Shown here: one piece after another, positions 13,789-31,985 of the stretch | Position numbering within the stretch: the first letter of the stretch is position 1 | Layout of the letters: every line of letters starts with the position of its first letter | NCBI GenBank assembly: GCA_963788175.1 | Contig: CAWBFZ010000006.1 | Span: 55,221 to 119,220 of the forward strand | Length of the DNA: 64,000 bases | Source of the DNA: Thermoanaerobaculia bacterium | GTDB taxonomy: Bacteria; Acidobacteriota; Thermoanaerobaculia; Multivoradales; JAGPDF01 | Direction of reading: 5' to 3' | Made by a program: the position numbers and the translations under genes | Notes under the pieces: generated by a model | What the model saw: only the letters and a program-made list of their open reading frames with translations | Told to the model about the DNA's origin: nothing | Databases searched by the model: none

Positions 13789-13790
13789 CG

Positions 13791-15690
13791 TCACAGCGGC
13801 AGGACGGCCGACTTGTGGCAGTCGGCGCAGGCACTGCCGACCGGCTTGAGGCGGGCGACCTCCTTGCCGCCGATGCGCTCCCGGAAGTGGCAGCCGACAC
13901 AGGCGACGGCGCGGTGCGCGCCCTCGAGGCGGTAGGTCGAGTCGCGATTGTGGTCGAAGCGTGAGGGGCCCCAGCTCGAGTCGCCGTGGCACTTCTCGCA
14001 GCCGGTGCCGACCTGCCCGAGATGCGGATCGGCGTGGCAGCCAGAGCACAGGAGCGGCGCCCCGGCGAGGCGGACCTCGCGCGGCGTCGCCCAGGCGCGC
14101 GCCGACGGCGGCGGCAGCACGACGGCGGCCGACGTCGGCAGCGGACGGCCCCCGGCCGGGGTCGGCAAAGGAAAGGCGCGGCCGACCTCGACTGGGGCAG
14201 GCCGCCGGCGGCCGGGCTCTTGTGGCAGCCGAGGCAGGCGACCTTGAGATGCAATCCGGCGACCGGGAACTTCGTCACGCTGTGGTCGAAGCGGATCGCG
14301 CGCCAGTCGGTGAGCGCATGACAGGCGAGGCAGCCCTCCTTCCCGAGGTACTTCTCGGTGTCGCCGGCGTGCGGATCGCGATGGCAGTCCGCGCAGTCCG
14401 ACTTCGGGAAACGGAACTGGGTGATGGCCGGCGGTCCGGTCGGCCTTGGGCGCGGGCGCGACCCGGACGAGAGCGATGCCGGCGCGTTCGAGCTCGGCGG
14501 GCGGCAGGGTGCGATGGCAGGTGGCGCACTTCGTCGTGCGATGGCTCCCCAGCAGCGGGTAGGAGGTGGCCTCGTGCAGCGCGACGGTGTAGGTCGAGGG
14601 GCGGAAACCGGAGGTCGTGTGGCACTCGCCGCACTCTCCGCCGCTCTTGCGCCGGGCGAGCTGGCCGGCGTGCGCGTCCGCGTGGCAGGAGGCGCAGCGC
14701 TCGAAGCCGGGAATCTGCCTCGGCTTGCCGGGCAGGTGGCAGGCGAGGCAGTCGGTCGCCTGGTGCTTGCCGGTGAGCGGATAGCGGGTGCGGGCGTGGT
14801 CGAAGTTGGCGCGCTGGATCCGCTTCCAGTCGTCGCTCGTGTGGCAGCTCTCGCACTTCGCCCCGAAGCGGCCCTGGTGCGGGTCCTTGTGGCAACCGGC
14901 ACAGGTGGTGGGCACGCCGCGATAGGCGACGTCCGGCGGGGCCGATCCGGCCTGCGGAGTGTCCGCAGAGCGTGGAAGATGCGGCGGGGCGGAAGTTGCG
15001 CCAGCCGGGACGGTCGGGTGGCAGCGCGCGCAGGCCACCTTGACGTGGGCGAGGGTGAGCGGGAACTTCGACTTGTCGTGGTCGAAGAGCTCGGCGGGCC
15101 GGAACTTCTTCAGCCCGTGACAGCTCGCGCAGTCGGCGGTGCCGAACTGGCCGCGATGGGCGTCCTTGTGGCAGGAGGCGCAGCGCGTCTCGAGTCCGAG
15201 GAAGGTGCGCTCGAGCTCGACGCCCTTGGCGAGAAGCGGCGCCGGGTCGGCGATCGACTGCTTGCGATGGCAGGCGCGGCACTCGAGCGGCGCGTGCGCG
15301 CCCTGCAGGGTGTAGCCGGCGAGCGCGTGGTCGAAGGCCTTCTGGCCGGCCTTGCCCCAGTAGACCAGCTCGAAGTCGCGGCCCTGATGCTCGATGTGGC
15401 AGTGCTCGCAGTCGCCGTGGTCCGGCCGGGAGTGGAGGCCTCGCCGGCGTCGATGCGCTGCTGGATCGGCGTGTGGCAGGTGAGGCAGAGCCCCCGGTCG
15501 ACGCCGCGCTTGGCGCTGTGGCAGTTGAGGCATCCGTCGCTGCCGTCGAACTTCGCATGCGCGTGGCTCAACTCGCCGGGCGAGATCTGGCCGCGCGCCG
15601 CCGGCGGCGAGAGCAGCGCGCATCCCAACCCGGCGAGGATCCCGGCGGCGGCCAGGATGCGCCCCGATGCCCGGCCGCAGCTCAGTGTCC
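13791..15690 (-). CDS. Exported multiheme cytochrome c, 20 CXXCH; frameshifted near 15440 and 14440
   Basis: Signal-like ILAAAGILAGLGCALLSPPAARG; 20 CXXCH counted across frames; FDH..FPL.G.H and CH.D.H.G repeats; exact start unclear. Confidence 0.85.
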
Positions 15691-16553
15691 GATCCCCGCG
15701 TAACCGGTCATCCAGGCGACGCCGATGTGCACCACCATGAAGAGATACATGACGACGGCGAACGGCTTGTGGAAGACGTGCCAGTAGTGGAAGAGCTCGC
15801 GCACTCTCTGCCACAGCAGGATGCGGCGGTGGAGGCGCACCTTGTGGGTCGCCAGGAGCTCGAACCGGCGGCGCAGACGCCGATCGACCGCCGGGAAATC
15901 GCGCCGGAAACGGCGCAGCCGGAAGCGCAGCGCCAGGGCGTCGTAGGGAAATCGGAGGACCATGCCGAAGAGGGACTGTTTGGCGCCGGTACCGATCTCC
16001 GCCACGGCATCGAGTTGCCGGATCGCATCGGCATCGAGGCCGACCTCGTCCATCAGCTGGCGGGCAAGCTCCTGGTCGAGCTTCTCGACCTCGGCCAGCG
16101 ACAGCTCGTCACCGGCGTTCGAGTGTGGAATCTGGCGGTACAGGTACCGCCCGGCGACGCCGCTCGAGGCGACCGCGACCATCGACCAGAAAGAGAGCGC
16201 GACCAGGCCCTGCACCTTGAAGGAGCTGTGGAGGAGGATGAAGAGAGGACCGCACAGGCCGAGCAGAATGTGAAAGTCGAGCCAGTCGCTGACCGGTCCC
16301 AGACGGCGCAGGAGGGCGAAGCGCTTGCGCACCGAGTAGAGCAGCATGACGATCATCATCGCCGCGCCGACGATGCCGAAGGCGAGGCCCCACGAGCCTC
16401 CCGGCTTGAGCTGCCAGTAGAGCGGGTGGCGCGGCCGTTCGGCGAGCGGCGTCAGGTAGTAGGGCAGTCCCTGCGAGCCGCGAACCAGGCGAGGCTGCCG
16501 AGAAACAGCACATAGAGGCCAACGAGCACGAGCCGCTGGGGGGCGACCTTCAC
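15682..16553 (-). CDS. Inner-membrane protein with paired TM histidines (ferric-reductase/cytochrome b-like); frameshift near 16470
   Basis: About 5 TM segments with WLDFHILLG, ILLHSSFK, HYWHVFHKPF and MVVHIG; GTG at 16553. Confidence 0.65.
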
Positions 16554-16554
16554 T

Positions 16555-17849
16555 TCACTTCGCTCCGCTCTCCAGGGTGATGGTGACCGGCGTGCCGGAG
16601 AAGCGCCTGCGACCGCGGCGGTCGAGATCGCCGGGCTCCTTGGTCGAGGCGTTGCCGTCGCCGTCGAGGCTGACCGAGAGGTTGCCCTTCGAGCGGCAGG
16701 GGCTGACCCATCATGCTGTCGTCGACGGAAAGGGTCAGCTCGAGCGGGAAGGTCGGATTCGAGATCCGCTTGACCGCGGCCGGCGGCCCCGGCGTGTCGC
16801 CGCGCAGGGCGACGAAGAGGGTCGCCCGACTGCCCGCCGCACCGCGCGGCGCGACCGTCCCCGGCGCGAGCTCGATGTGCAGGCGATAGGCGCCGCCGCC
16901 TGCGGCCGCCGCCGCGGGGGACTGGGCGGCAGCCGGAGGGGCCGCGCCGGCCATCGCGATGGCTCCGGCGCCGCCGGCGCCGCCGCCCGCCTCGACTTCC
17001 GCCAGCAGCTCCTCGATCGGCGGGAAGTTGCCGCCGGCCGCCGCCAGGCCCTTCTTCCAGGTCGCGATCGCCTGCGGCATCTGGCCGAGAGCGGCCTCCG
17101 CCTGGCCCTTCGCCAGCGAGGCCAGGAGGTGGTCGGGATGCTGCGCGAGGACGCCGTCCATGAGCTGCACGGTGAGCGGCCACTGGCCCATGGCCAGGCG
17201 CACCACGCCTTCGACGAAGAGGCCGTCCGGATCGTTGGGCGGCCTGCTTCTGCAGCTCTCTCGCCTGCTCGAAGGCCTCCATCAGGAGGTTGGCGTTGAG
17301 CAGCGCGACGGTGAGCTGGCGGCGCGCCTGGAGGTCCTGCGGCGCCGCCTGGACCTGCGCGCGAAACTGCTCGAGCTGCGCCGCGACTTCCGGGGTGAGC
17401 TCGGCGCTCTCGTCGTGGGCGGCTGCGGCGGCCTCGGGCGAGGCGGCGGGCGCGGCCGCGAGCCATTTGAGCCATCGGAGCCATCGGAGCCATCGGGGCC
17501 GTCGGAGCCATCTGCGCCGTCGGCGACATCGCAGCGGTACCCGCGCCCATCTCGTCCTTCGGTCGCGAGCCCACGGTGGCCCAGTAGATCGAGGCCGCCG
17601 ATGACGAGGCAGCTGGCGACTCCGAAGAGGAATCCGACCAGCCCCGACCGCCGTTCGGAGGTCGCCGGTCCGGCGGTGGTGCCCGGCCCAGCGGCCGAGA
17701 CAGCGTCCGGCGCGCCGGCACCAGATCCTTCGGAGGGCAGGCCTGTCGCGCTGCCCAGCGGGCTCTCGCTGCTTGCCCCGCAAAGCGAACCAGAGACCTG
17801 CGGCAAGGCCCACGGCGACGACGATCAGACCAGGAATCCAGACGTTCAT
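16555..17849 (-). CDS. ccmI: CcmI/CycH-like TPR cytochrome c maturation protein; several frameshifts
   Basis: N-terminal TM, TPR-like helices (PQDLQARRQLTVALL; PNDPDGLFVEG), C-terminal ATLFVALR...PPAAVKRI...FPLELTLSVDDSMM domain; follows ccmH with an ATGA overlap. Confidence 0.7.
17461..17530. repeat. 9-bp tandem repeat encoding Met-Ala-Pro repeats in ccmI
   Basis: GAGCCATCG x3 plus degenerate copies; minus strand reads MSPTAQMAPTAPMAPMAPMAQMA. Confidence 0.75.
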
Positions 17850-18352
17850 GACGGTTTCGAATCCTCCTGCGGGGTGGAAGTTGGGGGCGCCGGGCGCTGC
17901 GGCCGCAGGCGGAAGAAGATCATCAGCGCGCCGGCGGCGAACGCCAGCATCGGCATCAGCCAGACCATCCAGTTGAAGCCCTCCGCCTTGGGCTCGAGGC
18001 GGATGAACTCGCCGTAGGAGCGCTCGAACGCGGCGATCACCTGGTCCTCGGAGTAGCCGAGGGAGAGCATGCGACGGACCTCGGCCTTGAGGTCGACCGC
18101 CGAGGAGGACGGCGAGTCGGCCACCGACAGGCCCTGGCAGACCGGGCAGCGCATCAGGGAGGAGACCTCCTCCGTGGCGCGGTCGAGCGCCGCGCCGGCG
18201 AGCGGCGGCCCGAGCGGCGCCGGTCCTGGCCCGGCGCGGCGGGCGCTCTGTGCGCTGACGGCAAGCGGCGTCAGAACGACCACCAGGGCAGCAGCAGCGA
18301 CGAGCGCCGTGAGGCACGCGCCGCGGCGCGACAGCTTCGGGAGAGAGTTCAC
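17846..18352 (-). CDS. ccmH: Cytochrome c biogenesis protein CcmH
   Basis: MRCPVCQGLSVADS, YGEFIRLEP, WMVWLMP. Confidence 0.92.
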   Translation of the reverse strand: MNSLPKLSRRGACLTALVAAAALVVVLTPLAVSAQSARRAGPGPAPLGPPLAGAALDRATEEVSSLMRCPVCQGLSVADSPSSSAVDLKAEVRRMLSLGYSEDQVIAAFERSYGEFIRLEPKAEGFNWMVWLMPMLAFAAGALMIFFRLRPQRPAPPTSTPQEDSKPS

Positions 18353-18863
18353 AGCATCGCCTCCAGCGAGCGGGTCAGACCGTCGAAGCTCACCATGCCG
18401 GTGACCTTCTCGTGGACGATGCCCCGGGCGTCGATGAGGAAGGTCTCGGGCACGCCGTAGACGCCGAACCGAATGGCGGTGCGCGAGTCGGGGTCGACCA
18501 GCGCCGGGCCCCAGACTGCCGCGCTGGCGTTCGTAGGCGCGGATCGCCTCGCGGCGTGTCCTGGTAGATCACGCTCACGAACCGCGCCCGCCCGGCGTAG
18601 CGGCGCGCCAGGGCGGCGAAGATCGGATTCTCCGCGGCGCACGGCTGGCACCAGGTCGCCCAGAAGTTGACCACCACCGGCTGCCCGCGCAGGTCCGCGA
18701 GCCGGAGCGTCCGTCCCTCGAGGTCGCTCAGAGCGAACTCCGGCGCCGGCTGGCCGATGAGCGGCGAGATCACCTCGCGCGGGTCGTGGCGCAGGCCCGA
18801 GGCCAGCATGACGAGCAGCGGGGCGACCAGGATCAGGCCGATGAGCAGGACCTTGCGGTTCAT
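18349..18863 (-). CDS. ccmG: CcmG/DsbE thiol-disulfide oxidoreductase; frameshift near 18550
   Basis: VVNFWATWCQPC, GVYGVPETFLID, N-terminal TM. Confidence 0.9.
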
Positions 18864-20853
18864 GCCGCGGCCTCCGCGCCGGGGACCGGATCGGGCTTGC
18901 CGCCCCGAGAAGCGCAGGCCGGCGGGCAGCAGACAGATCGCCGTGCCGACGACGATGATGAAGACGCCGATCCAGATCCAGACCACGGCCGGCGTGACGA
19001 TGGCGCGCAGGCCGATGCTGCCGTCGGTGCCGACGTTCATCAGCGAGAGGTAGAGGTCGTGGCCGAGCGCCGTGCGGACGGCCGGCGTGCCGATCGGCTC
19101 CATGCGGGTGTCGTAGCGGTTGAGCGCCGGCTCGAGCGTGCCGGCGTCCTTGCCGTTGCGCTCGATCCGCATCACGGGCGCGATCCGAGACCCGATGCGG
19201 CTCCGGGCGCGCGTCCACCTTCTCGAAGGTGAGGTTGTAGCCCGCGACCGTCCATCGACTCGCCGGGTCGCATCGTCGCCTCGTGCGCGACCTGATAGGA
19301 CGACGAGACGGCGATGGCGACGAAGGTCACGACGACGCCCAGATGGGCGAGGTAGGCGCCGTAGCGGCGCGCTCCCGCGTCGCACGGCTTCGCCGACCGC
19401 CTCGGTCCACGGCTCGTCCTCGCGGCGCCGGCGGGTGAGGCGCAGTCCCTGGTCGAAGTTGACCCAGACGGCGTAGCCGGCGAGGGCGCCGGTGACGAGG
19501 ACGCCCCAGCTGCGGCCGCCGGCGGCGAGCGTCACGAGGAGGCCGGCGATCGCCGCCGGAATCGGAAAGAGCAGGGCGCGGCGGACGTTGCGGTTGTCGG
19601 CCCGCCCCCAGGGGAGCGCCGGACCGATGCCGATGAGCAGCAGCAGGCCGAGGCTGATCGGAATCGCCATGCGGTTGAAGTAGGGCTCGCCGACGCTGAC
19701 CTTGACGCCGCGCACCATCTCGGCGGCGATCGGGAAGAGCGTGCCGACCAGCACCGTGAACATGAAGACGAGCAGCAGCAGGTTGTTGATCAGGAAGGCG
19801 CCTTCGCGGGTCCACAGCGTCTCGCGGTCGGGATCCGAGGCGAGGGTGTCCATGCGCATGGCGAGCACGACGACGGAGGCCACGAGGCAGAAGCCGAGGA
19901 AGGCGAGGAAGGCCGGGCCGATCGGCGTCTGGGTGAAGGAGTGCACCGAGTTGACGACTCCCGAGCGGGTGAGGAAGGTGCCGAGGATCGTCAGCAGGAA
20001 GGTCACGACGACGAGCACGACCGTCCAGGCCCGCAGCGTCCCCTTGCGCTGCAGCACCAGCGCCGAGTGCACGGCGGCGATGGCGGTGAGCCAGGGGAGG
20101 AAGGAGGCGTTCTCCACCGGATCCCAGGCCCAGTAGCCGCCCCAGCCGAGCACTTCGTAGGACCACCAGCCGCCGAGCATCACGCCCATCGTCAGGAAGC
20201 CGGTCGGCACGAGCAGCCAGGTGCGCAGCGAGCGGATCCAGTCGCGGTCGAGCCGGCCGGCGAAGAGCGCGGCCATGGCGATCGCGAACGGCACGCTCAT
20301 GCCGACGTAGCCGAGATAGAGCATCGGCGGATGGATGATCATCAGCGGATGGTTCTGCAGCAGCGGATTCGGCCCCGGGCCGTCGGTCGGCACCGGCAGC
20401 GGCGTCGGCGCGAACGGATCGGCCGGCCCGGCGATCAGGAAGGTGAAGAAGATGCCGACCACGAAGAGCGTCCCGAGCATGTAGCCCAACTGGTCGGGAG
20501 CGCTCCGGCGCAGGTGGAAGGCCGACCCGGCGGTGAAGACCCCGAGGATCGAGGCCCCAGAAGAGGATCGACCCGTCGAGCGACGACCAGAGCGAGACGA
20601 TGGTGATGTGCAGGGGGGTCGCGAGCGACCCGACCTGCGCCACGTAGGAGACCGAGAAGTCGTGGCGAACGAGGGCGAAGATCATCAGGCCGGTGGCGAG
20701 CGCCATCATGACGGCATAGACGTAGGCGAGGCGCCGCGCGCGCGCGATCCCGCCGGCGGCGCGCCGCTGGGCGGCAGCGAAGCTCATCACCGCGCCGGTC
20801 GTCGCGAGGAGCAGCGCCGCCAGGACGACGGAGCGGCCGAGGATGGAGATCAT
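18860..20853 (-). CDS. ccmF: Heme lyase CcmF; several frameshifts
   Basis: NPLLQNHPLMIIHPPMLYLGY, WSYEVLGWGGYWAWDPVENAS, FLTRSGVVNSVHSF, VSVGEPYFN. Confidence 0.93.
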
Positions 20854-21349
20854 CGGGGATCTCCGGATGCGGAGGGCTCGAGCGTCTCGGCGAGCTCTTT
20901 GACCGTTCGAGAGTCGCCCTTGCCGGGCGCCTGGTACTCGTTGTCGTGCTTGATCATCAGGCGGTCGGTGCGCGAACGTTCCGTCGGCCTGCAGCGCGCC
21001 TTCGACGACCACGCCGATCCCTTCGCGGAACATCGCCGGCGGCACCGCCGTGCGTCGAGACGGCGACCGTCTCCGTGCCGTCGGTCATCTTGAACTGGAG
21101 ACCGAGGCCGCCCTCGCCGGTCTCGATCGAGCCCGGCGCGACCAGGCCGCCGAGGCGGATGGTGGCGCCTTCGGCCTTGCCGCCGTGGGCGCGCAGCTCG
21201 GTCGGGCTCCAGTAGTAGACCAGGCTCTTGCCGAGGCCGCCCAGGGCGAGAAATCCGAAGGTCCCGGCGGCGATGAGGATGGCGACGAGGGCGAGCAGCC
21301 GGTGCCGCCGGACTTCGGCGCGCGCCTTGTTCGAGGATTCGATCGTCAT
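20850..21349 (-). CDS. ccmE: Heme chaperone CcmE; frameshifted
   Basis: LVYYWSPTE, IRLGGLV, PPAMFREGIGVVVEG, MIKHDNEY heme-binding H-x3-Y. Confidence 0.9.
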
Positions 21350-21483
21350 GACTTGCCCTCCTTCTGATGCTGCTGTCGCGTGCGCCGGATCAGGCTCCAG
21401 GCGTAGAGGACCAGGCCGACGGCGGTGATGCTGTAGGCGGCGATGACGAAGTTCCATCCGCCGAGGATGACTCCCTCAGGCAT
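21346..21483 (-). CDS. ccmD: Heme exporter protein CcmD (45 aa, not in the ORF track)
   Basis: MPEGVILGGWNFVIAAYSITAVGLVLYAWSLIRRTRQQHQKEGKS between ccmC and ccmE, overlapping both; single TM plus basic tail. Confidence 0.82.
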   Translation of the reverse strand: MPEGVILGGWNFVIAAYSITAVGLVLYAWSLIRRTRQQHQKEGKS

Positions 21484-22174
21484 GACGCACCTCGATTCTC
21501 TCGATTCGGTCGGGAATGGCGGTTTCGCTGCTGCGCCGCCGGGCGAGCTCGAGGCGGGCGCGGCGGACGATGAACCAGATGGCGGCGAACATCAGGGCGA
21601 AAGCGTTCAGCCGCAGCGGCAGCACCATAGCTGGATCTACGGTGGCGGGCGAGGACTGGATCTGATGCAGGCTCCGCCACCAGCGCACGCAGAAATAGAC
21701 CAGCGGCACGTCGACGTAGGCGACGATCGCGGCCACCGCCGTCAGGCTCGCCCGGCGCTCCGAGCCGACGGCGAACGAGCGCAGCGAGAGCACGCCGATG
21801 AAGAGCAGGAGCAGGACCAGGGAGGTCGTGAGGCGCACGTCCCAGTCCCACCAGACGCCCCAGGTGGCGCGGCCCCAGAGTGAGCCCTGGATGAGGAGCA
21901 GGCCGTTCAGGACCACGCCGGCCTCGGCGGCGCCGACGAGGGTCGCGTCCCAGCGCTCCCGCCCGGTCCACAGCGAGCCGATCGCCGCGATGAAGGCGCA
22001 GGTGAAGCAGAGCAGCGCGTTCCAGGCGGTCGGCACGTGCACGTACATGATGCGCTGGACCTCGCCCATATGGCGTTCGGCCGGGGCCACGAAGAGACCG
22101 ATGTAGCAGCCGACGATGAACAGCAGGACGCCGGCGAGTCCCACCCAGTGCTCTTTGGCAAAGCGACGGTTCAC
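21476..22174 (-). CDS. ccmC: Heme exporter protein CcmC
   Basis: RIMYVHVPTAW, WGRATWGVWWDWDVRLT, WWRSLHQ. Confidence 0.95.
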   Translation of the reverse strand: MNRRFAKEHWVGLAGVLLFIVGCYIGLFVAPAERHMGEVQRIMYVHVPTAWNALLCFTCAFIAAIGSLWTGRERWDATLVGAAEAGVVLNGLLLIQGSLWGRATWGVWWDWDVRLTTSLVLLLLFIGVLSLRSFAVGSERRASLTAVAAIVAYVDVPLVYFCVRWWRSLHQIQSSPATVDPAMVLPLRLNAFALMFAAIWFIVRRARLELARRRSSETAIPDRIERIEVRHA

Positions 22175-22177
22175 GGT

Positions 22178-22864
22178 TCAGCCCTCCTCGATGACGAACG
22201 GAAAGAGGATCCCTCCCAGGGACCAGTAGATGAGGTCGAAACAGAGCAGCAGCAGCGCCCACGACCGCATCTGCCCCATCGGGTCGCCGGTGAGGACGAG
22301 CGCCAGCGCCTTGCAGGAGGCCATCAGGACCGGCACCACGAGCGGGAAGAGCAGCAGCGGCAGCAGGACGTCGCGGCTGCGCAGCTGGGCGGTCATGGCG
22401 GCGTAGAGCGTTCCTGGCGCCGAGAGCCCGGCCGCGGCGAGGCCCCAGATGGTGAAGAAGCTCACCACGTTCGCCGGCTGGAGCTCGACGCCGTAGAGCA
22501 CGACGCCGAACAGCGACAGCCCGGGCGCCAGCATCGCGAGCGAAAGCGTATTGGCGATCGCTTTGCTGTAGAAGACGGCGCCCGGCCGGACCGGCAGCAG
22601 GAGGATGCCCTCGAGCGCCCGGCGTTCGTGCTCGATGCGAAAGCTCTCGGCGAGCGCCAGCGTCGAGGAGAGCAGCAGGGCGATGACCAGAAACCCGGCC
22701 GCCCCGGCGGTGAGGGCCTTCGAGTCCGGGCCGACGGCGATCGAAAACACCACCAGCGAGAGCAGCCCGAAGACGCCGACCGCGACGAGGCGCGCCTTCG
22801 CCCGCCATTCGAGCCGGAGGTCCTTGGCGAGAAGTGTCAGGGTCTGGCTGCGCAGCTCGCTCAC
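22178..22864 (-). CDS. ccmB: Heme exporter protein CcmB
   Basis: LLAKDLRLEWR, LLPLLLFPLVVPVL; about 6 TM; GTG at 22864. Confidence 0.92.
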   Translation of the reverse strand: MSELRSQTLTLLAKDLRLEWRAKARLVAVGVFGLLSLVVFSIAVGPDSKALTAGAAGFLVIALLLSSTLALAESFRIEHERRALEGILLLPVRPGAVFYSKAIANTLSLAMLAPGLSLFGVVLYGVELQPANVVSFFTIWGLAAAGLSAPGTLYAAMTAQLRSRDVLLPLLLFPLVVPVLMASCKALALVLTGDPMGQMRSWALLLLCFDLIYWSLGGILFPFVIEEG

Positions 22865-23580
22865 GAGGCCCTCGCCAGCACGTTCGGGAGGTCGCGGGCG
22901 GCGCCCTGCCAGGTCATCTGGCCGCGGGCGAGGAGCACGGCGCGGTCGGCGATCGGCGCCGCGCGCTCGAGGTTGTGCGAGGCGATGACCACGGTCTTGC
23001 CCGCCTTGCGGTCGGCGGCGATCCAGTCGGTCACCAGCTCCTGGCCGGCGGTGTCGAGGGCGGCGAACGGCTCGTCGAGCAGCACCAGATGCGGAGTCCT
23101 CGAGGCGCACCCGGGCGAAGGTCAGACGCTTCTGCATGCCGGCGGAGAAGCCGCTCACGACGGTGTCGCTCTCGGGCTCGAGGCCGACCTCCGCCGAGGC
23201 GCGCGCGCAGGTCCGCGTTCGGCCGTCGAGCGGCCGAGGAGGCGCGCCCAGAGGCGCACCGTCTCGAGGGCGGTGAGAGGCTCGTAGAGATAGGAGGCAT
23301 GCGAGAGCAGCGAGACATTTCGGCGCCAACCGAAGGGGTCGGATGCGAGGTTCTTGCCAAACAGCTCGAGCTCGCCGGCGGTGGGTCGCAGGAGGCCCGC
23401 GAGCAGGCGCAGAAAGGTCGTCTTGCCCGAGCCGTTGGGGCCGGCGATGAGCAGCACCTCGCCCGGCGCGGCGGTGAGGTCGAGGTGGGCGAGCGCCCAC
23501 TTCTGCCCGTATCTGCGGGACAGATCGCGGGCACGGAACGCCGCCGGCGGCGTTTCGGACGGGCGATTGGCGACCTTCAA
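22861..23580 (-). CDS. ccmA: Heme ABC exporter ATPase CcmA; frameshifts near 23210 and 23095
   Basis: GPNGSGKTT, FSAGMQKR, LLDEPF, VIASH. Confidence 0.9.
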
Positions 23581-23719: not shown

Positions 23720-26094
23720 CTAGAGCCGGTAGCCGAGCTGGAGGAAGAGCCGCTCGCCTTCGAGGTCGTCGCCGGTGGCCGATTCGAGCTCGCCGAGCAG
23801 GTAGAAGCGCCGGCCGAGCTGGAGCGTGCCGGAAAGGCGCAGCCACTGGTTCTCGCGCACCTCGCCCGTGGCGAGGAGCTCGGTGCTGGAGATGCCGAAG
23901 GTGAGCTCGACGTCGTGGCCGCTGCGGAAGTACTTCTGGACCCGCAGGCCGGCGCGGAAGCCGCTCGAGGTGTCGCCGTCGAAACCCGAGTAGTCGCCGC
24001 CGACGAGCATGTTCCAGCCGAAGACGTTGCTGTGGTAGACGTTGGCGTTGTAGGCGAGGCTGCGGTCGGGGTTGCCCTGCTTCCAGCGCTGGCCGACCGA
24101 GAAGTTGGCGCGCACCGTCTTCGCCGAGCCGAGGTAGGCCGTCACCCGATAGCCCTCGCGCAGCGCGTTGTCGAACAGCTCTTCGGGCGTGAAGCGGTCG
24201 TCAAGGGTGAAGATCTGGCGCGACTGGTCGTAGCTCACGCCGAGGCGCACCGCCTTGGAGACGCTGTAGCTGCCGGAGAACAGGACGTTGCTCAGCTGAC
24301 TGTTGTTGGCGGCCGGATTGTCGCGCCAGTTGTGGCCGAGGTCGAACTCGGCGCGCTCGTAGAGCGACCAGCGGCTGCCGGAGCCCTGCCGGCCGTAGAA
24401 CGACAGGTACTCCCGGTTGGTATCGCCCCCGAGGTAGTCGCCGATCGCCTCGAAGCAGGTACTCGGCGTAGAAGGGCTTCCCGGGCGACTGGTCGAGCCA
24501 GTGCACGAAGGCGCCGTAGGCGCGGCCCGGGCTGGCGAAGTTGATCTGGTCGCCGTTCGAGCGCGAGCCGTAGAACGCTCCGAGACTGAAGCGCCGGGTG
24601 GCGTGGAACTCGCCGACTCCGCCGTCGAGATAGTCGAAGCCGACGAGCGGCCCGGAGATCAGCCGGCCGACCTGGTAGGTGAAGCGTGCCTCGGGCGGCT
24701 CGTAGGAGAGGGTCGCTTCGTAGAGGCGGTCGTTGTCGCGCGACTCCGACCTGCCGGAGGAGAGCTGGATCTGCTCGCGGCTGGCGGTGCCGCGCAGCCG
24801 GAAGTCGAACTTGCTGCCGCCGATGTGGCCGGCGTAGATGTTGACCAGAGCCGACTCCTGGTTGAAGTCGCGCCCGGCCGGACCGCCATCCTTGAAGCCC
24901 TGGTAACGCAGCGCCAGCGACCCGGAATAGTCGGTGTGTTCGGCGGGGTTCCAGCCCGGCGGCTTGCCCTTCTGGCCCGGCACGACCGGCGCGCCGGTCG
25001 GTGCGCCGGCGCTGCCGGCACCGGCCGGGAGCGCGGCCGAGGGCGGCAGCGGACCCGGGATGACGAGATCACCGACGGCGATCGTCTCCGTCGCCGCGAC
25101 GATCTTGCACGAGGCCGAGTGGCTGGCGATGAAGGCGATCTCGAGCTCGGCGATCTCGGAGGTCGCGCCGGTCGCGGCGTCGGTGCGCCGCACCTTGACG
25201 CGCTGGCCGACCGCCAGGCCCGGCGCTGCGGCCGGCGTCGAGGAAGACCTCTTCGGCGAGCACCTGGCGCACCCGGATCGGTTGCGCCACGGCGGGCTCG
25301 CCCGGTACTGGGCGGCGGGCGTTGCCGGCAGCGGTCGGGGTTGCGGCAATCGCCGGCTCCGTCACCGGCGCCGGCGGCGGCGGCGGGACTTCGAGCCGCC
25401 GAACGCGGTCTCCCTGGGTGATCGGGCGCACTTCGCGATCGATCCGGCAGGTCGCCGAGTGCTCGCCGACCAGCAGGACCTCGAGCTCGCCGATGACCAG
25501 GCTGCCGCGCTCCACCACGAGGCGATCGCCGACCGCCACCGGCTGCGAGGAGACCAGCGAGATGTCGACCGCACCGCGCAGCACGCGCTGCACGATCATC
25601 GTCTGGTTGCTCGGGTGCTCGCCCGCGTCGTCGGGCCTGGAGGCGACTGGGTGGCGGCGGGCAGAGCGCCTGGCGACGGCGATCGGAGCGGCCGGAGCGC
25701 GCAGCGGTCGCCGCGGCCGAGGGCTTTGCCCGCCGCGCGCGGGCGCACCAGATCGCCGCCGGCGATCGCGCGCCGTCATGCGCTCGATCCGGCACGAAGC
25801 CTCGTGGTTCGCCGACGATGGTGACCTCGAGATCGGCGAGCTTGACGCCGTCGCGCTCCACGGACGAGGCGATCGCCGACCGCGAGTCGCCGCGTGCCCG
25901 GTACGTCGATGTCGACCCGCCCGGCGACGACGCGCGCGACGGTCATCGGCGGCGCGCTGTCGGGGGACTGCCGCGGCGGAAGCCAAGCCGGATGCGAACA
26001 GAGGACCAGAGCGAGGGTCGCCAGGATCGAGAATCGGAGTCGGACGCCGGCCGCTCTGCGCAGAGGCGGCCGAGAAATTCATGGAATCAGTCAT
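23720..26094 (-). CDS. Outer-membrane beta-barrel (porin-like) with three tandem N-terminal beta-domains; frameshifted
   Basis: Signal-like FSILATLALVLCSHPAW; three similar ~70-aa domains; Pro/Ala linkers; long amphipathic beta region ending LFLQLGYRL (aromatic beta-signal). Confidence 0.75.
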
Positions 26095-26129: not shown

Positions 26130-29100
26130 CTAGGCCGACCCGCGCGGGTGACACTGGTAGCAGGCGTGGCTCTCGTAGAGGTAGCCGCCGACCTCGTTGT
26201 GGTCGTTGTTGGTCTCGCTCTGGCTGTGTTCGTGACAGAGGATGCACTCGAAGTTGTTGAAGTTCCCGGCGCTCACGTGGCACGAGGCGCAGGGGAGCTG
26301 GTGGCGGCCCGAAGCGATCGGGAAGCAGGTCGTTGTGATTGAAGGTCGACGGCTCCCAGGCGGTCGTGCTGTGGCAGCTCTCGCAGGTGGTCGGGAAGCC
26401 GGCGCTCTGGTGGTCGGGGTCGTTGGTGCCGTTGTAGTCGCTCTGATGGCAGGCGAAGCACAGGGTGGGCGTGCCGGAGTAGCCGCCGGAATGGCAGTCG
26501 AGGCAGGCCGCGCCGGCGTGCGCGCCGGTGAGCGGGAAACCGGTGGCGCTGTGGTTGAAGCTCGCCGGCTGCCAGGCGGTGTCGGAGTGGCAGTCCTGGC
26601 AGGTGTGCGGGAAGCCGGTGTGACTCGGGTTGTTGGCGCCGTTGAAGTCGGACTGATGACAGGAGAAGCAGGCCGACGGCGTGCCCGGCGTAGCCGCCGC
26701 TGTGACAGTCGAGACAGGACGCGGCCAGGTGGGCGCCGTGCAGCGGGAAGCCGGTGGCGCTGTGATTGAAGCTCGCCGGCTGCCAGGCGGAGACGCCGTG
26801 GCAGTCCTGGCAGCTGTGCGGGAAGCCGGTGTGGCTCGGGTTGTTGGCGCCGTTGAAGTCGGACTGGTGACAGGAGAAGCAGTCGGTCGGCGTTCCGGCG
26901 TAGCCGCCGCTGTGGCAGTCGAGGCAGGAGGCGGCCTGGTGCGCGCCGTTGAGCGGGAAGCCGGTCGCGTTGTGGTTGAAGCTCGCCGGCTGCCAGGCGG
27001 CGACGCCGTGGCAGTCCTGGCAGGTGTGCGGGAAGCCGGTGTGACTCGGGTTGTTGGCGCCGTTGTAGTCGGACTGGTGACACGAGAAGCAGTCGGACGG
27101 CGTTCCGGCATAGCCGTTCTGGTGGCAGGCGGTGCAGGAAGCGCCGAGCGGTGGGCGCCGTTGAGCGGGAAGCCGGTGGCGTTGTGGTCGAAGCTCGCCG
27201 GCTGCCAGGCGGTGACGCCGTGGCAGTCCTGACAGCTGTGCGGGAAGCCGGCTGTGGCTCGGATTGTTGGCGCCGGTGTAGTCGGTCTGATGACAGGAGA
27301 AGCAGTCGGAGGGCGTCCCGGCGTAGCCGTTCTGGTGACAGTGAGGTGCAGGAGGCCGAGCGATGGGCGCCGTTCAACTGGAAGCCGGTGGCGTTGTGGT
27401 CGAAGCTCGCCGGCTGCCAGGCGGAGACGCCGTGGCAGTCCTGGCAGGAGTGCGGGAAGCCGCTGTGGCTCGGATTGCTGGCGCCGGTGAAGTCGGTCTG
27501 ATGGCAGGAGAAGCAGTCGGAGGGCGTGCCGGCGTAGCCGTTGCGGTGGCAGGAGGTGCAGGAGGCCGAGCGATGGGCGCCGTTCAGCTGGAAGCCGGTG
27601 GAGTTGTGGTCGAAGTTGGCCGGCTGCCAGGCGGAGACGCCGTGGCAGTCCTGGCAGGATGTGCGGGAAGCCGCTGTGGCTCGGATTGCTGGCGCCGGTG
27701 AAGTCGGTCTGATGACAGGAGAAGCAGTCGGAGGGCGTGCCGGCGTAGCCGTTGCGGTGACAGGAGGTGCAGGAGGCCGAGCGATGGGCGCCGTTCAGCG
27801 GGAAGCCGGTGGAGTTGTGGTCGAAGTTGGCCGGCTGCCAGGCGGAGACGCCGTGGCAGTCCTGGCAGGTGTTCGGGAAACCGGTGTGGCTCGGATTGCT
27901 GGCGCCGGTGAAGTCGGTCTGATGGCAGGAGAAGCAGTCCGAGGGCGTGCCGGCGTAGCCGTTGCGGTGACAGGAGGTGCAGGAGGCCGAGCGATGGGCG
28001 CCGTTCAGCTGGAAGCCGGTGGAGTTGTGGTCGAAGTTGGCCGGCTGCCAGGCGGAGACGCCGTGGCAGTCCTGGCAGGTGTTCGGGAAGCCGCTGTGGC
28101 TCGGATTGCTGGCGCCGGTGAAGTCGGTCTGATGGCAGGAGAAGCAGTCCGAGGGCGTGCCGGCGTAGCCGTTGCGATGGCAGGAGGTGCAGGAGGCCGA
28201 GCGGTGGGCGCCGTTCAGCGGGAAGTCGGTGGAGTTGTGATCGAAGGTGGCCGGCTGCCAGGCGGAGACGCCGTGGCAGTCCTGGCAGCTGTTGGGGAAG
28301 CCGCTGTGGCTCGGATTGCTGGCGCCGGTGAAGTCGGTCTGGTGGCAGGAGAAGCAGTCCGAGGGCGTGCCGGCGTAGCCCGATGCGATGACAGGAGGTG
28401 CAGGAGGCCGAGCGATGGGCGCCGTTCAACTGGAAGCCGGTCGCGTTGTGGTCGAAGCTGGCCGGCTGCCAGGCGGAGACGCCGTGGCAGTCCTGGCAGG
28501 AGTTGGGGAAGCCGCTGTGGCTCGGGTTGCTGGCGCCGGTGAAGTCGCTCTGATGACAGGAGAAGCACTCACTGGGCGTTCCGGCGTAGCCCGTGCGATG
28601 GCAGGAGGTGCAGGAGGCCGAGCGATGGGCGCCGTTCAACTGGAAGCCGGTCGCGTTGTGGTCGAAGGTCGCCGGCTGCCAGGCGGAGACGCCGTGGCAG
28701 TCCTGGCAGGAGTTGGGGAAGCCGCTGTGACTCGGGTTGCTGGCGCCGGTGAAGTCGCTCTGATGGCAGGAGAAGCAGTCGGTGGGCGTGCCGGCGTAGC
28801 CGTTGCGGTGGCAGCTCGCGCAGTCGGTGGAGCGGTGGGCACCGTTCAACTGGAAGCCGGTGGAGTTGTGGTCGAAGAGCGCCGGCTGCCAGGCGGTGAC
28901 GCCGTGGCACTCGCGACAGGTGATGGGGAAGCCGGCATGCACCGGGTTGCGGGCGCTGGTGAAGTCGGTCTGGTGGCAGGAGAAGCACTCGATCGGCGTG
29001 CCGGCGTAGCCGGTGCGATGGCAGGTCGTGCAATCGACCGTGCGGTGGGCGCCGAGGAGCTGGAAGCCGGTCTGGTTGTGATCGAAGGTCGCCGGCTGCC

Positions 29101-29744
29101 AGGCAGAGACGCCGTGGCAGTCCTGGCAAGTCGTGGCGAACCCGGCATGCACGGGGTTGCGCGCCCTGGTGAAGTCCTTCTGGTGACAGGTAAAGCAGTC
29201 GGTCGGGGTCGCGGTGTAGCCGTTGCGGTGACAGGAGACGCAGTCGACCGAGCGATGGGCGCCGTTGAGCTGGAAGGTGGTCTGATTGTGGTCGAAGGTC
29301 GCCGGTTGCCAGGCTGCACACGCCGTGACAGTTCTTGCACGCGGTCGGGAACCCGGCGTGGCTCGGGCGGGTGGCGCGGATGAACGCCGGCTCGTGACAG
29401 GCGAAGCAGTCGGCCTTGGCCTTGGCCGTCGGCGAAGTCGAGGGTCGCGTGGCAGGACTTGCAGGTGGCGTCGGCGTGCGCGCCGGCGAGGTCGAAGCCG
29501 GTCGTCGCGTGTTTCCACGGCAGCGGCGACCGGAGCGGCGTCCAGCCCTCCATCGAATGGCATTCGGCGCACGCGGTCGCCGAGCGCGCCGTGCGGGCTC
29601 GCCGAACCCCCTTGCGCGCGCCAGCGGCGCCGGGACGCCGAGCGCAGCGAAGGCAGCCAGGATGGGCACCAGCCAAAGGCCGGCTTGCACGAAGTGCCGA
29701 GGTCCTGCGCGATGGCGAAAGCCGCACGCGATGCATCCGGGCAT
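26130..29744 (-). CDS. Giant repeat multiheme cytochrome c, about 49 CXXCH; several frameshifts
   Basis: Signal peptide, 4 N-terminal hemes, 14 units of 70 aa x 3 CXXCH, 3-heme C-terminal cap ending CYQCHPRGSA. Confidence 0.88.
26356..29308. repeat. Coding tandem repeat, ~210-bp unit x14
   Basis: GCCAGGC anchor recurs at 26571, 26782, 26992, 27204, 27416, 27626, 27837, 28047, 28257, 28468, 28678, 28888, 29098 and 29308 (variant near 26356). Confidence 0.92.
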
Positions 29745-29851: not shown

Positions 29852-31985
29852 TCACTCACGGCCGCGCGGGTGACACTGGTAGCAGGCCCGACTCTCGTAG
29901 ACGTAGCCGCCGACCCCCCGGTGCTCGGGATTGGTCTCACCCTGGCTGTGCTCGTGACAGAGGATGCACTCGAAGACGTTGTAGTTTCCCGCCGCCACGT
30001 GACAGGAAGAGCAGGGGAGCTGATGGCGCCCTGAAGCGATCGGGAAAGAGCTCTCGTGATTGAACGTCGCCGGCGTCCAGGCGTTCGTGCCGTGGCAGTC
30101 GGCGCAACTGGTCCCGAATCCGGCGCTGGCGTGATTGGGATTGCGGGTCCCGTTGTAGTCGCTCTGATGGCAGGCGAAGCAGTCGGACGGTGTTCCGGAG
30201 TAGCCGTTGCGGTGGCAGGTGGTGCAGGCGAGCGAGCGGTGCGCGCCGGTGAGCTGGAAGCCGGTCGTGTTGTGGTCGAAGCTCGCGGGCTGCCAGGCGG
30301 TGACGCTGTGGCAGTTCTGGCAGGTCGTCGGGAAGCCGGAGTGGCTCGGGTTCGAAGCCGCCGTTGTAGTCGCTCTGATGGCAGGACAGACAGTCGGATG
30401 GCGTGCCGGCGTAGCCGTTGCGGTGACAGGTGGTGCAGGCGACCGAGCGGTGCGCTCCGTTCAGCTGGAAGCCGGTCGTGTTGTGGTCGAAGGTCGCGGG
30501 CTGCCAGGCGGTCGCGCTGTGACAGTTCTGGCAGGTGGTCGGGAAGCCGGCGTGGCTCGGGTTGCGGGCGCCGGTGTAGTCGCTCTGATGGCAGGCGAAA
30601 CAGTCGGCGGCGGTGCCGGCATAGCCGTTGCGGTGGCAGGAGGTGCAGGCGACCGAGCGATGCGCACCGCTCAACTGGAAACCGGTCGCGTTGTGGTCGA
30701 AGGTCGCGGGCTGCCAGGCGGTCGAGCTGTGGCAGCTCTGGCAGGTGGTCGGGAAGCCGGAATGGCTCGGATTGCGGGCACCGTTGTAAGCGGCTTGATG
30801 ACAGGCGAAACAGTCCGCCGGGGTGCCGGCGTAGCCGTTCGCATGGCAGGAGGTGCAGGGGGCCGAGCGGTGCGCGCCGGCGAGCTGGAAGCCGGTCGCG
30901 TCGTGGTTGAAGGTCGCCGGCTGCCAGGCGGTGACGCTGTGGCAGTCCTGGCAGGTGTTGGGGAAACCGCTGTGGCGCGGGTTGCTGGCGCCGTTGTAGT
31001 CGCTCTGGTGGCAGGAGAAGCAGTCCGTGGGAGTGCCGGCGTAGCCCGTGCGGTGACAGTTGACGCAGCTGGTGGAGCGATGTGCCCCGCTGAGCGGGAA
31101 GCCCGAGCTGTCGTGATCGAAGAGCGCCGGTTGCCAGGCGGTGAAGCTGTGGCATTCGCGGCAGGTGACGGGGAAGCCGGCGTGCACCGGGTTGCGGGCG
31201 CTGGTGAAGTCGGTCTGGTGGCACGACAGGCACTCGACCGGCGTGCCGGCGTAGCCGGTGCGGTGACAGAGCGTGCACTCGACCGTGCGGTGGGCGCCGA
31301 GGAGCTGGAATCCGGTCTGGTTGTGGTCGAAGACCGCCGGCGACCAGGCGGAGACGCCGTGACAGTCCGCACAGCTGGTGGAGAAGCCGGCGTGGGAAGG
31401 ATTCCGGGCGCTCGCGAAGTCCTTCTGATGGCAGGTGAAGCACTCGGTTGGCGTCGCCGTATAGCCGGCGCGATGACAGGCGACGCAGTCGACGGTGCGA
31501 TGGGCGCCGTTCAACTGGAAGGTGGTTCGGTTGTGATCGAAGGTGGCCGGCTGCCAGGCGGCGACGCCGTGGCAGGACTTGCAGGTGGTCGGGAAGCCCG
31601 CGTGGGCGGGTCGGGTGGCGCGGGTGAAGGCCGGCTCGTGGCAGGCGTAGCAGTCGGTCTTGCCCTTTTCTCTGGCGAAGTCGAGCGTCGCATGGCAACT
31701 CTTGCAGGCGATGGCGGAGTGTCCGCCGGCGAGATCGAAGCCGGTTTCCGAGTGCCTGTAGGGCAGCGGCGACTTGAGCGGAGACCAGCCCTCGGTGGAG
31801 TGGCAGTCGGTGCATTCGTTCTTGAGGGCGCCGTGCGGATTCGCCGAGCGCGCCTGCCCCGCGACCGGAGCCGCGCGCAAGAGAAGGAGGAAGGCGAGTC
31901 CTGCACCGTAGGTGGCGAGTCGCAGCGGCTGGGTCGCAACGAGCCACGGCGGCATTCGCGACCGCAAGGTCTCCAAAGAAGCCAT
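29852..31985 (-). CDS. Repeat multiheme cytochrome c, 28 CXXCH; frameshift near 30355
   Basis: Signal peptide, 4 N-terminal hemes, 7 units x 3 CXXCH, 3-heme cap ending CYQCHPRGRE; start may be 31985 or 31955. Confidence 0.9.
30075..31555. repeat. Coding tandem repeat, ~210-bp unit x7
   Basis: AWQP/AWSP/AWTP-ATFDH junctions roughly every 210 bp. Confidence 0.88.

What the first reader, a model, noticed from the sequence alone, without database searches (positions are those of the whole stretch)
26130..29744. ~49-heme cytochrome built from 14 near-identical 70-aa modules, each with 3 CXXCH and 3 spare His
Seen: unit consensus PATFDHNxTGFQLNGAHRSxxCTSCHRNGYAGTPSDCFSCHQxDFTGASNPSHSGFPNxCQDCHGVSAWQ. 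Three CXXCH and exactly three non-motif His (FDH, GAH, PSH) fit full bis-His ligation at about 23 aa per heme. Inference: a linear, length-programmable single-polypeptide heme wire, unlike polymerised nanowires such as OmcS, OmcE and OmcZ. The central units (27416-28678) are almost identical in DNA, which suggests recent expansion.
Basis: partly seen in the sequence, partly recalled or inferred. Interest (0 to 1): 0.85.

Follow-up and report, generated by a model that had tools for sequence, protein, structure and literature searches.

The report
Giant modular 49-heme cytochrome, frame-broken assembly
The region encodes a 49-heme "electron wire" protein made of 14 repeated three-heme units, but it belongs to a large family already described from genomes, and the deposited sequence breaks its reading frame about 12 times, most likely through assembly errors.

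Summary
The repeat is real: a 210-nt unit occurs 14.2 times on the minus strand (26417-29413). It is not one ORF as deposited. The coding frame hops 12 times, always by an insertion (eleven +1, one +2).

Removing 11 inserted bases gives a 1205-codon stop-free frame with 49 CXXCH: a 4-heme N cap, 14 modules of 3 hemes, and a 3-heme C cap. His8, His19 and His55 are present in every module.

The breaks are most likely assembly artefacts. The genome carries at least 568 stop-less frame switches, 81% of them +1, which is 4-25 times the density in four relatives. Congeners have intact orthologs with 49, 46 and 31 hemes.

The organism is a Thermoanaerobaculia MAG. The gene sits in a PCC3-type porin-cytochrome cluster: a 28-heme paralog, a putative barrel, ccm genes, an inner-membrane protein with two WX3HX13H motifs plus SGXXG, a 20-heme cytochrome and an FeS-flavoprotein.

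The family is very large (more than 3400 database hits). Heme counts mostly follow 7+3n and reach 81 within the search's length limit.

Published work already describes such repeat cytochromes as single-chain "molecular wires" with variable heme number. This is a new member of a known, biochemically untested kind. The module is not a canonical c7 domain.

The parts
26130..29736 (-). Gene B: conceptual CDS of the 49-heme modular cytochrome c. As deposited, 12 insertion events break it into pieces in three frames.
   Evidence: Searches show the frame hops. One search shows that removing 11 bases gives a 1205-codon stop-free frame with 49 CXXCH. Intact orthologs: L023:4770-7799(-) in G010 and L025:4119-7778(-) in G004.
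29600..29736 (-). N-terminal Sec-type signal peptide region, spread over three frames (two further +1 shifts that were not placed exactly).
   Evidence: Three-frame view, compared with the G010 N-terminus MNRAQLQLPRRTSS...LLPLTPLAAQSAS.
29312..29599 (-). N cap with 4 CXXCH (CAECH, CKSCH, CFACH, CKNCH) and 4 spare His.
26359..29311 (-). Array of 14 tandem triheme modules, each with 3 CXXCH plus His8, His19 and His55. Thirteen modules are 70 aa and the last is 72 aa.
26130..26358 (-). C cap with 3 CXXCH (CASCH, CILCH, CYQCH) and the stop codon.
29579..29579 (-). +1 insertion relative to the G010 ortholog (frame break).
29429..29429 (-). +1 insertion (frame break).
29319..29319 (-). +1 insertion (frame break).
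28381..28381 (-). +1 insertion in module 5 (CGCATCGGGCTAC against consensus CGCAAC-GGCTAC).
27659..27659 (-). +1 insertion in module 8 (CACATCC, where other units read CACA-CC or CACT-CC; it looks like two alleles merged).
27342..27342 (-). +1 insertion in module 10 (CTCACTG).
27251..27251 (-). +1 insertion in module 10 (CAGCCGG).
27142..27143 (-). +2 insertion in module 11.
26684..26684 (-). +1 insertion in module 13 (GGGCACG, where other units read GGG-ACG or GGC-ACG).
26333..26333 (-). +1 insertion in the C cap.
29852..31985 (-). Gene A: upstream paralog with 28 CXXCH and 7 modules, sharing the same caps. It has one +1 insertion near 30360.
   Evidence: The intact G010 ortholog is P0004, 643 aa.
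23720..26094 (-). Putative outer-membrane barrel gene downstream of gene B. It is also frame-broken, and the G010 ortholog (816 aa) has no Pfam hit.
   Evidence: The barrel fold was not tested here.
16555..23580 (-). System I cytochrome c maturation genes (ccmA, ccmB, ccmC-like, ccmF and others), with several frame breaks.
   Evidence: Pfam hits on the G010 orthologs. Frame breaks.
15700..16553 (-). Inner-membrane protein with two WX3HX13H motifs and SGVAG, the PCC3/PCC4-type signature of a putative di-heme b protein.
13794..15630 (-). 20-heme cytochrome c of a different type, with a frame break at 15443.
12471..13790 (-). 4Fe-4S ferredoxin domain fused to an FAD/NAD(P) oxidoreductase, with frame breaks near 12856.

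Best explanation
Gene B is a real gene for a Sec-exported c-type cytochrome of about 1150 aa carrying 49 covalently bound, bis-His-ligated hemes. It consists of a 4-heme N cap, 14 tandem 70-aa triheme modules and a 3-heme C cap.

The 12 frame breaks in the deposited sequence are insertion-type consensus errors of an error-prone, probably long-read, MAG assembly. They are not biology.

The protein belongs to a very large uncharacterised family in which heme number mostly follows 7+3n. It forms part of a PCC3-type porin-cytochrome gene cluster.

Inferred function, not shown: with about 23.6 residues per heme, the polypeptide can do little more than hold hemes edge to edge. The protein would then act as an elongated intramolecular electron conduit, some tens of nm long by scaling from known heme wires. 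It would relay electrons between the inner-membrane module (FeS-flavoprotein, putative di-heme b protein, 20-heme cytochrome) and the outer-membrane barrel or the exterior.

Module number drifts by unequal recombination in the middle of the array, so wire length differs between species.
For: Architecture.

His ligands: His8, His19 and His55 are conserved in at least 90% of 124 four-module windows and 100 single modules from many phyla. There is no Met in any module.

Fold: AlphaFold2 gives pLDDT 83.4 with periodic secondary structure. Pfam class III / c7 / c3 families score above their cut-offs.

Frame breaks are artefacts:
- All 12 events in gene B are insertions.
- There are no in-frame stops after repair.
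- The same kind of +1 break occurs in ccmF, the barrel, the flavoprotein, a NUDIX/MBL gene and others.
- Genome-wide there are 568 stop-less frame switches (0.127 per kb), against 0 to 0.033 per kb in four relatives.
- 81% of these switches are phase +1, against 47% at ordinary gene junctions.
- The genome has 20 contigs but is estimated only 88.7% complete.

Intact orthologs: G004 has 49 CXXCH in a 1220-aa open frame, G001 has 46, G013 has 31, and G010 has a 1009-aa ORF.

Family size and the 7+3n rule.

Cluster context. In 28 of 43 full-flank loci a protein with two WX3HX13H motifs plus SGXXG lies within 6 kb.

Literature proposing wire or capacitor roles, with variable heme number: PMC5566968, PMC7399161, PMC10734462, PMC11492766.
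Against: - The frame breaks and the exact count of 14 are therefore unverified.
- rpoB is intact and frame breaks are patchy: 210 of 456 10-kb bins have none. A locally decaying cluster is not strictly excluded.
- No member of this family has been purified. Location (periplasm or exterior) and direction of electron flow are unknown.
Confidence: 0.72

Rival explanations
1. Gene B, and perhaps the whole cluster, is a genuine pseudogene in this organism. On this reading the extracellular-electron-transfer cluster is decaying by frameshift mutations.
For: There are 12 frame breaks in 3.6 kb, five of them in the non-repeat N-terminal 450 nt. Breaks are denser between 12.8 and 38.6 kb of the window than in the flanking 3.5-12 kb and 39-42 kb. 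rpoB is intact.
Against: - All 12 events are insertions, whereas bacterial mutation usually favours deletions (established knowledge).
- No in-frame stop exists and no heme motif or conserved His is lost in 1205 codons after repair.
- Breaks also hit unrelated neighbours outside the cluster, at 32636, 37712, 37864 and 38633.
- There are at least 568 similar stop-less switches genome-wide, 81% of them +1, at 4-25 times the density in relatives.
Confidence: 0.08
2. The array length of 14 modules is an assembly artefact: the near-identical central units were collapsed or expanded, and the true protein has a different heme number.
For: Modules 5-10 are 90-98% identical in DNA. The assembly is demonstrably error-prone here. 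The short-read assembly of congener G010 leaves an N gap inside the same array.
Against: An independent congener assembly, G004, on a 956-kb contig, has exactly 14 modules and 49 CXXCH in an intact frame. The units are distinguishable, each carrying its own substitutions. The whole array is only 3 kb, which long reads would span.
Confidence: 0.2
3. The protein works mainly as a periplasmic electron store (a capacitor holding up to 49 electrons) or redox buffer, not as a directional wire reaching through the outer membrane.
For: A capacitor role is an accepted alternative for heme-rich periplasmic cytochromes and was proposed for these very proteins (PMC7399161, PMC10734462). There is no lipobox and no recognisable surface-sorting signal, and the N-terminus looks like a signal peptidase I substrate.
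Against: The gene is tightly linked with a putative barrel and a trans-membrane module. The two roles are not mutually exclusive.
Confidence: 0.2
4. It is a polymer of genuine cytochrome c7 domains, that is, a longer homolog of Geobacter GSU1996 and GSU2210.
For: Pfam Cytochrome_C7 (PF14522) scores above its cut-off: 51.5 bits for P0001 and 136 bits for P0003. The module size of 70 aa with 3 hemes equals that of PpcA.
Against: - The order of ligands and motifs is H,H,CXXCH,CXXCH,H,CXXCH. This is not a rotation of the c7 order H,H,CXXCH,H,CXXCH,CXXCH (read from the sequences; the PpcA sequence was recalled from memory).
- hhalign of the module profile against PpcA gives only 20% probability.
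- The module profile hits GSU1996 (3ov0) at E=0.007 over 23 residues and PpcA at E=0.14 or worse, whereas the 16-heme HmcA (1z1n) scores 6e-11.
Confidence: 0.1

Closest known systems
PCC3 porin-cytochrome cluster and its repeat-built multiheme cytochromes (He, Barco, Emerson and Roden 2017, PMC5566968; Gallionellaceae survey, PMC10734462)
   Same: - The cluster holds a putative porin, two very heme-rich cytochromes, and an inner-membrane protein of about 290 aa with two WX3HX13H motifs plus SGXXG.
- The aa-per-heme ratio is very low.
- PCC3 periplasmic cytochromes have internal repeats of about 66-70 aa with 3 hemes each: 21, 24 or 27 hemes (PMC10734462).
- AlphaFold models of PCC3 cytochromes are described there as long and linear.
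   Different: - The host is Acidobacteriota (Thermoanaerobaculia), not Proteobacteria.
- Both large cytochromes here are paralogs of the same 70-aa module type (7 and 14 modules).
- A full ccm operon is inserted in the cluster.
- A 20-heme cytochrome and a cytoplasmic FeS-flavoprotein are added.
- Direct sequence homology to the Sideroxydans or Leptothrix proteins was not tested.
24- and 49-heme cytochromes preceding an OmbB-like porin in Burkholderiales S13 (PMC7399161)
   Same: Two large cytochromes lie upstream of a porin, one with 49 motifs at 23.4 residues per heme. The number of CXXCH domains varies between close relatives. Wire or capacitor roles were proposed.
   Different: The phylum differs, and homology to this protein was not tested here.
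GSU1996 dodecaheme 'nanowire' of Geobacter sulfurreducens (concatenated c7-type domains; PDB 3ov0)
   Same: It is a single polypeptide made of tandem triheme modules that form an extended heme chain. It is the only experimentally characterised protein of this design (PMC11492766).
   Different: It has only 4 modules. The ligand order of the present module differs from c7, and sequence similarity is marginal.
16-heme high-molecular-weight cytochrome HmcA (PDB 1z1n) and the nine-heme cytochrome c (19hc)
   Same: These are the best solved-structure matches by profile (E=6e-11 and 7e-6). They are class III c3-like heme-binding segments concatenated in one chain.
   Different: They are compact multi-domain proteins with no regular tandem array and far fewer hemes.
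Polymerised cytochrome nanowires OmcS, OmcE and OmcZ
   Same: They form a continuous chain of closely packed bis-His hemes for long-range electron transfer.
   Different: Those are filaments of many 4- to 8-heme subunits. Here the length is encoded in one polypeptide. There is no significant sequence or fold match.

Membership tests
PCC3-type porin-cytochrome cluster (He et al. 2017) | Conserved inner-membrane protein of about 300 aa with two WX3HX13H motifs and an SGXXG motif. | tested here: met
   Window 16553-15700(-) encodes WLDFHx13H, WHVFHx13H and SGVAG; the G010 ortholog is 289 aa. The number of TM helices was not computed.
PCC3-type porin-cytochrome cluster (He et al. 2017) | Two cytochromes with very many hemes, a low aa-per-heme ratio and internal sequence repeats. 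| tested here: met
   Gene A has 28 CXXCH and gene B has 49, at 23.6 aa per heme, with 70-aa repeats.
PCC3-type porin-cytochrome cluster (He et al. 2017) | Adjacent outer-membrane beta-barrel porin gene. | tested here: inconclusive
   The adjacent ORF (816 aa in G010) has no Pfam hit. No barrel prediction was run here; a barrel is proposed only by the first-stage note e1-5243613.
PCC3-type porin-cytochrome cluster (He et al. 2017) | Sequence homology of the cytochromes to the reference PCC3 proteins of Sideroxydans lithotrophicus ES-1 or Leptothrix cholodnii SP-6. | not tested
   Reference sequences were not obtainable with these tools. Only the repeat period (66-70 aa, 3 hemes) in the paper's supplement agrees.
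Cytochrome c7 / GSU1996-type c7 polymer | Match to the Pfam Cytochrome_C7 model (PF14522) above the gathering score. | tested here: met
   51.5 bits against a cut-off of 24.8 for P0001, and 136 bits for the G010 ortholog.
Cytochrome c7 / GSU1996-type c7 polymer | c7 order of distal His and heme motifs: H,H,CXXCH,H,CXXCH,CXXCH. | tested here: not met
   The module order is H8,H19,CXXCH,CXXCH,H55,CXXCH. No cyclic shift of the repeat gives the c7 order.
Cytochrome c7 / GSU1996-type c7 polymer | Detectable full-domain similarity to PpcA or GSU1996. | tested here: not met
   hhalign probability is 20%. 3ov0 scores E=0.007 over 23 residues, and PpcA scores E=0.14 or worse.
Class III (c3-type) multiheme cytochrome superfamily | Match to Pfam Cytochrom_CIII / Cytochrom_c3_2 and bis-His ligation (one spare His per CXXCH, no Met). 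| tested here: met
   PF02085 scores 49.6 bits and PF14537 scores 50.8 bits, both above their cut-offs. Each module has 3 conserved spare His and no Met. Ligation itself is inferred.
Polymerising nanowire cytochromes (OmcS/OmcE/OmcZ) | Sequence or fold similarity to the filament subunits. | tested here: not met

The most novel reading that the evidence does not exclude
The tandem triheme array may be an evolvable 'molecular ruler'. Unequal recombination in the centre of the array, where modules are 90-98% identical within a genome but at most about 92% identical to any module of another species, adds or removes exactly three hemes at a time. This would give the 7+3n series seen across thousands of family members (25 to at least 81 hemes). 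Selection would then match wire length to the distance to be bridged in each lineage: periplasm, outer layers, or the reach to minerals. The 7-module and 14-module paralogs in one operon would be two wires of defined, different reach working in series through one barrel.
Probability: 0.25. Interest if true: 0.6.

Novelty: new member of a known kind. Interest (0 to 1): 0.3.

Why it matters
If the protein is made as inferred, it packs 49 hemes into one chain that would be tens of nanometres long. That is a genetically encoded wire whose length changes in three-heme steps. It would make a good test bed for electron-transfer physics and for engineered bio-wires.

The idea and the family are already in the literature as genomic predictions, and longer members (70-81 hemes) are common, so this locus adds little by itself.

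The practical lesson concerns the assembly. It carries hundreds of insertion-type frame breaks, so gene calls here, and especially in repeats, must be treated as damaged. Automated annotation will miss or fragment this cytochrome.

Tried and rejected
Neither the frameshifts nor the repeat count were checked against reads.
- Geometry: model coordinates are not exposed to the Python box. Rise per unit and heme spacing could not be measured.
- Canonical c7 polymer: considered and rejected on ligand order and weak profile scores.
- Programmed frameshifting or phase variation: rejected. There are 12 shifts in unrelated, non-repetitive sequence contexts, all in the same direction, and the same kind of break occurs genome-wide.
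- First attempt to list indels by nucleotide alignment with G010: this was noisy. The GC3-phase HMM and tblastn frames were more reliable.
- Independent assembly of the same strain: the protein database held none. The best hits were 82% identity (P0005), and 94% over 37% of the query (P0070).
Full report
**What is in the sequence**

Tandem Repeats Finder reports a 210-nt unit repeated 14.2 times at 26417-29413, with 88% matches. A second array lies at 30141 onward. Both encode protein on the minus strand.

The region is not one ORF. The 49 CXXCH motifs between 29571 and 26162 are spread over all three minus-strand frames. A three-frame view shows the homologous reading jumping from frame to frame. 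Unit lengths are 210, 210, 210, 211, 210, 210, 211, 210, 212, 212, 210, 211.

Aligning the units shows single extra bases, and one 2-base insertion, in otherwise conserved columns. Aligning the non-repeat ends with the ortholog of a congener places four more +1 insertions at 29579, 29429, 29319 and 26333. Two further shifts lie in the signal-peptide region. In all there are 12 events, and every one is an insertion.

Removing 11 bases conceptually gives a 1205-codon stop-free frame with 49 CXXCH. The layout is a 4-heme N cap, 14 modules and a 3-heme C cap. Each module has 3 CXXCH, His at positions 8, 19 and 55, and no Met. The ratio is 23.6 residues per heme.

The stitching was not declared, and 29744 is a wrong-frame start codon.

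**Are the frame breaks real?**

The indirect evidence points strongly to assembly error.

1. The window is syntenic, at about 85% nucleotide identity, with contig C80 of congener G010. In G010, gene B (1009 aa, with an N gap inside the array) and gene A (643 aa) are intact.
2. tblastn of G010 open frames onto the window shows the same kind of break in ccmF, the barrel gene, the FeS-flavoprotein, the 20-heme cytochrome, a NUDIX/MBL gene and two further genes. Ten of these 11 breaks are +1 insertions in the window.
3. A GC3-phase HMM over the whole genome recovers the known break points. It finds 568 same-orientation phase switches with no stop codon within 120 nt, or 0.127 per kb, on nearly every contig.
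4. The same test gives 0.005, 0, 0.025 and 0.033 per kb on 400 kb sampled from four relatives.
5. Of the 568 switches, 81% are phase +1, against 47% at ordinary gene junctions. This is a systematic insertion bias.
6. The repaired gene B has no in-frame stop and has lost no heme motif or ligand His.
7. The genome has only 20 contigs yet is estimated 88.7% complete, which fits a long-read MAG with indel errors.

Two insertions look like two alternative alleles written side by side: CACA/CACT becomes CACAT, and GGG/GGC becomes GGGC.

rpoB is intact and the breaks are patchy. A residual chance of genuine decay therefore remains, which I put near 8%.

**What it is**

The closest public contigs are Thermoanaerobaculia (Acidobacteriota) MAGs.

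Pfam places the modules in the class III / c3 / c7 group: PF14522, PF14537 and PF02085 all score above their cut-offs.

The three non-motif His are invariant or at least 90% conserved. This holds in 124 four-module windows and in 100 single modules drawn from Acidobacteriota, Ignavibacteriota, Bacteroidota, Calditrichota, Zixibacteria and others. That supports bis-His ligation of all three hemes.

By profile, the best solved relatives are the 16-heme HmcA (E=6e-11) and the nine-heme cytochrome. GSU1996 and PpcA are marginal. hhalign to PpcA, whose sequence I recalled from memory, gives 20% probability.

The order of ligands and motifs in the module is H,H,C,C,H,C. No cyclic shift turns this into the c7 order H,H,C,H,C,C. 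The module is therefore c3-superfamily-like but not a canonical c7 domain.

**Family and variation**

Within the genus, gene B orthologs carry:
- 49 CXXCH in G004, in an intact 1220-aa frame with 14 modules;
- 46 in G001;
- 31 in G013;
- at least 39 in G010, where an N gap interrupts the array.

End modules are orthologous position by position. Modules 5-10 of the window are 90-98% identical to each other but at most about 92% identical to any module of another species. This indicates lineage-specific expansion or homogenisation in the middle of the array.

Across 78 fetched loci the heme counts are 25, 28, 31, and so on up to 70, that is 7+3n. HMM-detected module counts, which include cap-derived partial hits, run from 3 to 22.

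A search of the 5.8-billion-protein set returned 3423 hits below 1e-20 among the 8000 candidates scored, all named 'hypothetical' or misnamed. Among the best 120, CXXCH counts reach 81 at the search's 2024-aa length limit, and 85 of 120 obey 7+3n. Forty-nine hemes is mid-range for this family.

**Context**

On the minus strand, from upstream to downstream, the genes are:
- gene A (28 hemes, 7 modules, the same caps, one +1 insertion);
- gene B;
- an 816-aa protein with no Pfam hit, the putative barrel;
- ccmA, ccmB, a ccmC-like gene, ccmF and further ccm genes;
- a membrane protein of about 290 aa;
- a 20-heme cytochrome of another type;
- a 4Fe-4S plus FAD/NAD(P) oxidoreductase.

The membrane protein carries WLDFHx13H, WHVFHx13H and SGVAG. 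This is exactly the signature He et al. defined for the PCC3/PCC4 inner-membrane protein (PMC5566968). In 28 of 43 family loci with full flanks, such a protein lies within 6 kb.

**Comparison with what is known**

- He et al. [quoted passage not shown] Their supplement shows 66-70-aa repeats in 21- and 24-heme periplasmic cytochromes.
- Arbour et al. 2020 reported 24- and 49-heme cytochromes upstream of a porin. They noted 23.4 residues per heme, and gain or loss of CXXCH domains between close relatives.
- The Gallionellaceae survey found 21, 24 or 27 hemes and long, linear AlphaFold models.
- Soares et al. 2024 note a record of 113 motifs. They also note that GSU1996 is the only characterised protein of this modular wire design.
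- Earlier notes of this scan on other genomes reached the same classification. I treat these as leads, not evidence.

**Verdict**

The 'single-polypeptide heme wire of variable length' reading is reasonable. It is, however, already the published hypothesis for this kind of protein, and it remains untested biochemically.

I file the finding as a new member of a known kind, the PCC3-type repeat multiheme cytochromes, here in Thermoanaerobaculia. It is not a c7 polymer and not a new class. Interest is modest.

Noticed in passing
whole genome G000 (all 20 contigs); in the window, for example 12856, 14440, 20551, 20970, 21053, 24453, 32636, 37712, 37864, 38633: The assembly carries at least 568 stop-less coding-phase switches (0.127 per kb), 81% of them +1. 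Four relatives show 0 to 0.033 per kb. This is a patchy, insertion-biased consensus error that fragments many ordinary genes. It probably explains the 88.7% completeness estimate despite only 20 contigs.
   Followed up: yes
window 15700-16553 (-): A membrane protein of about 290 aa has two WX3HX13H motifs and SGVAG, the signature of the PCC3/PCC4 inner-membrane (putative di-heme b) protein. It has one +2 insertion near 16471.
   Followed up: partly
window 16555-23580 (-): A system I ccm gene set lies inside the cluster, between the putative barrel and the inner-membrane module. In many homologous loci of other phyla, the inner-membrane protein lies within 6 kb of the giant cytochrome instead.
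   Followed up: partly
L022:4795-10290 (+) (G017, complete Thermoanaerobaculia MAG JAXLQW01): The FeS/FAD oxidoreductase and a 34-heme modular cytochrome lie in one 1831-codon open frame with no stop between them. This could be a fusion, or a cytochrome start internal to the frame.
   Followed up: no
L023:4770-7799 (-) (G010): The short-read assembly of the congener leaves a run of about 100 N inside the same repeat array. Short reads evidently cannot resolve the central modules.
   Followed up: no
L084:1930-7104 (+), L088:3613-8628 (+), P0052: Family members reach 70 and 67 CXXCH (Bacteroidota and Terriglobia MAGs) and 81 CXXCH (2006 aa). Longer ones may exist beyond the search's length limit.
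   Followed up: partly
window 13794-15630 (-): A third multiheme cytochrome (about 20 CXXCH) has a different architecture, with only a C-terminal c7/c3-like Pfam hit. It is adjacent to the FeS-flavoprotein and has a frame break at 15443.
   Followed up: partly
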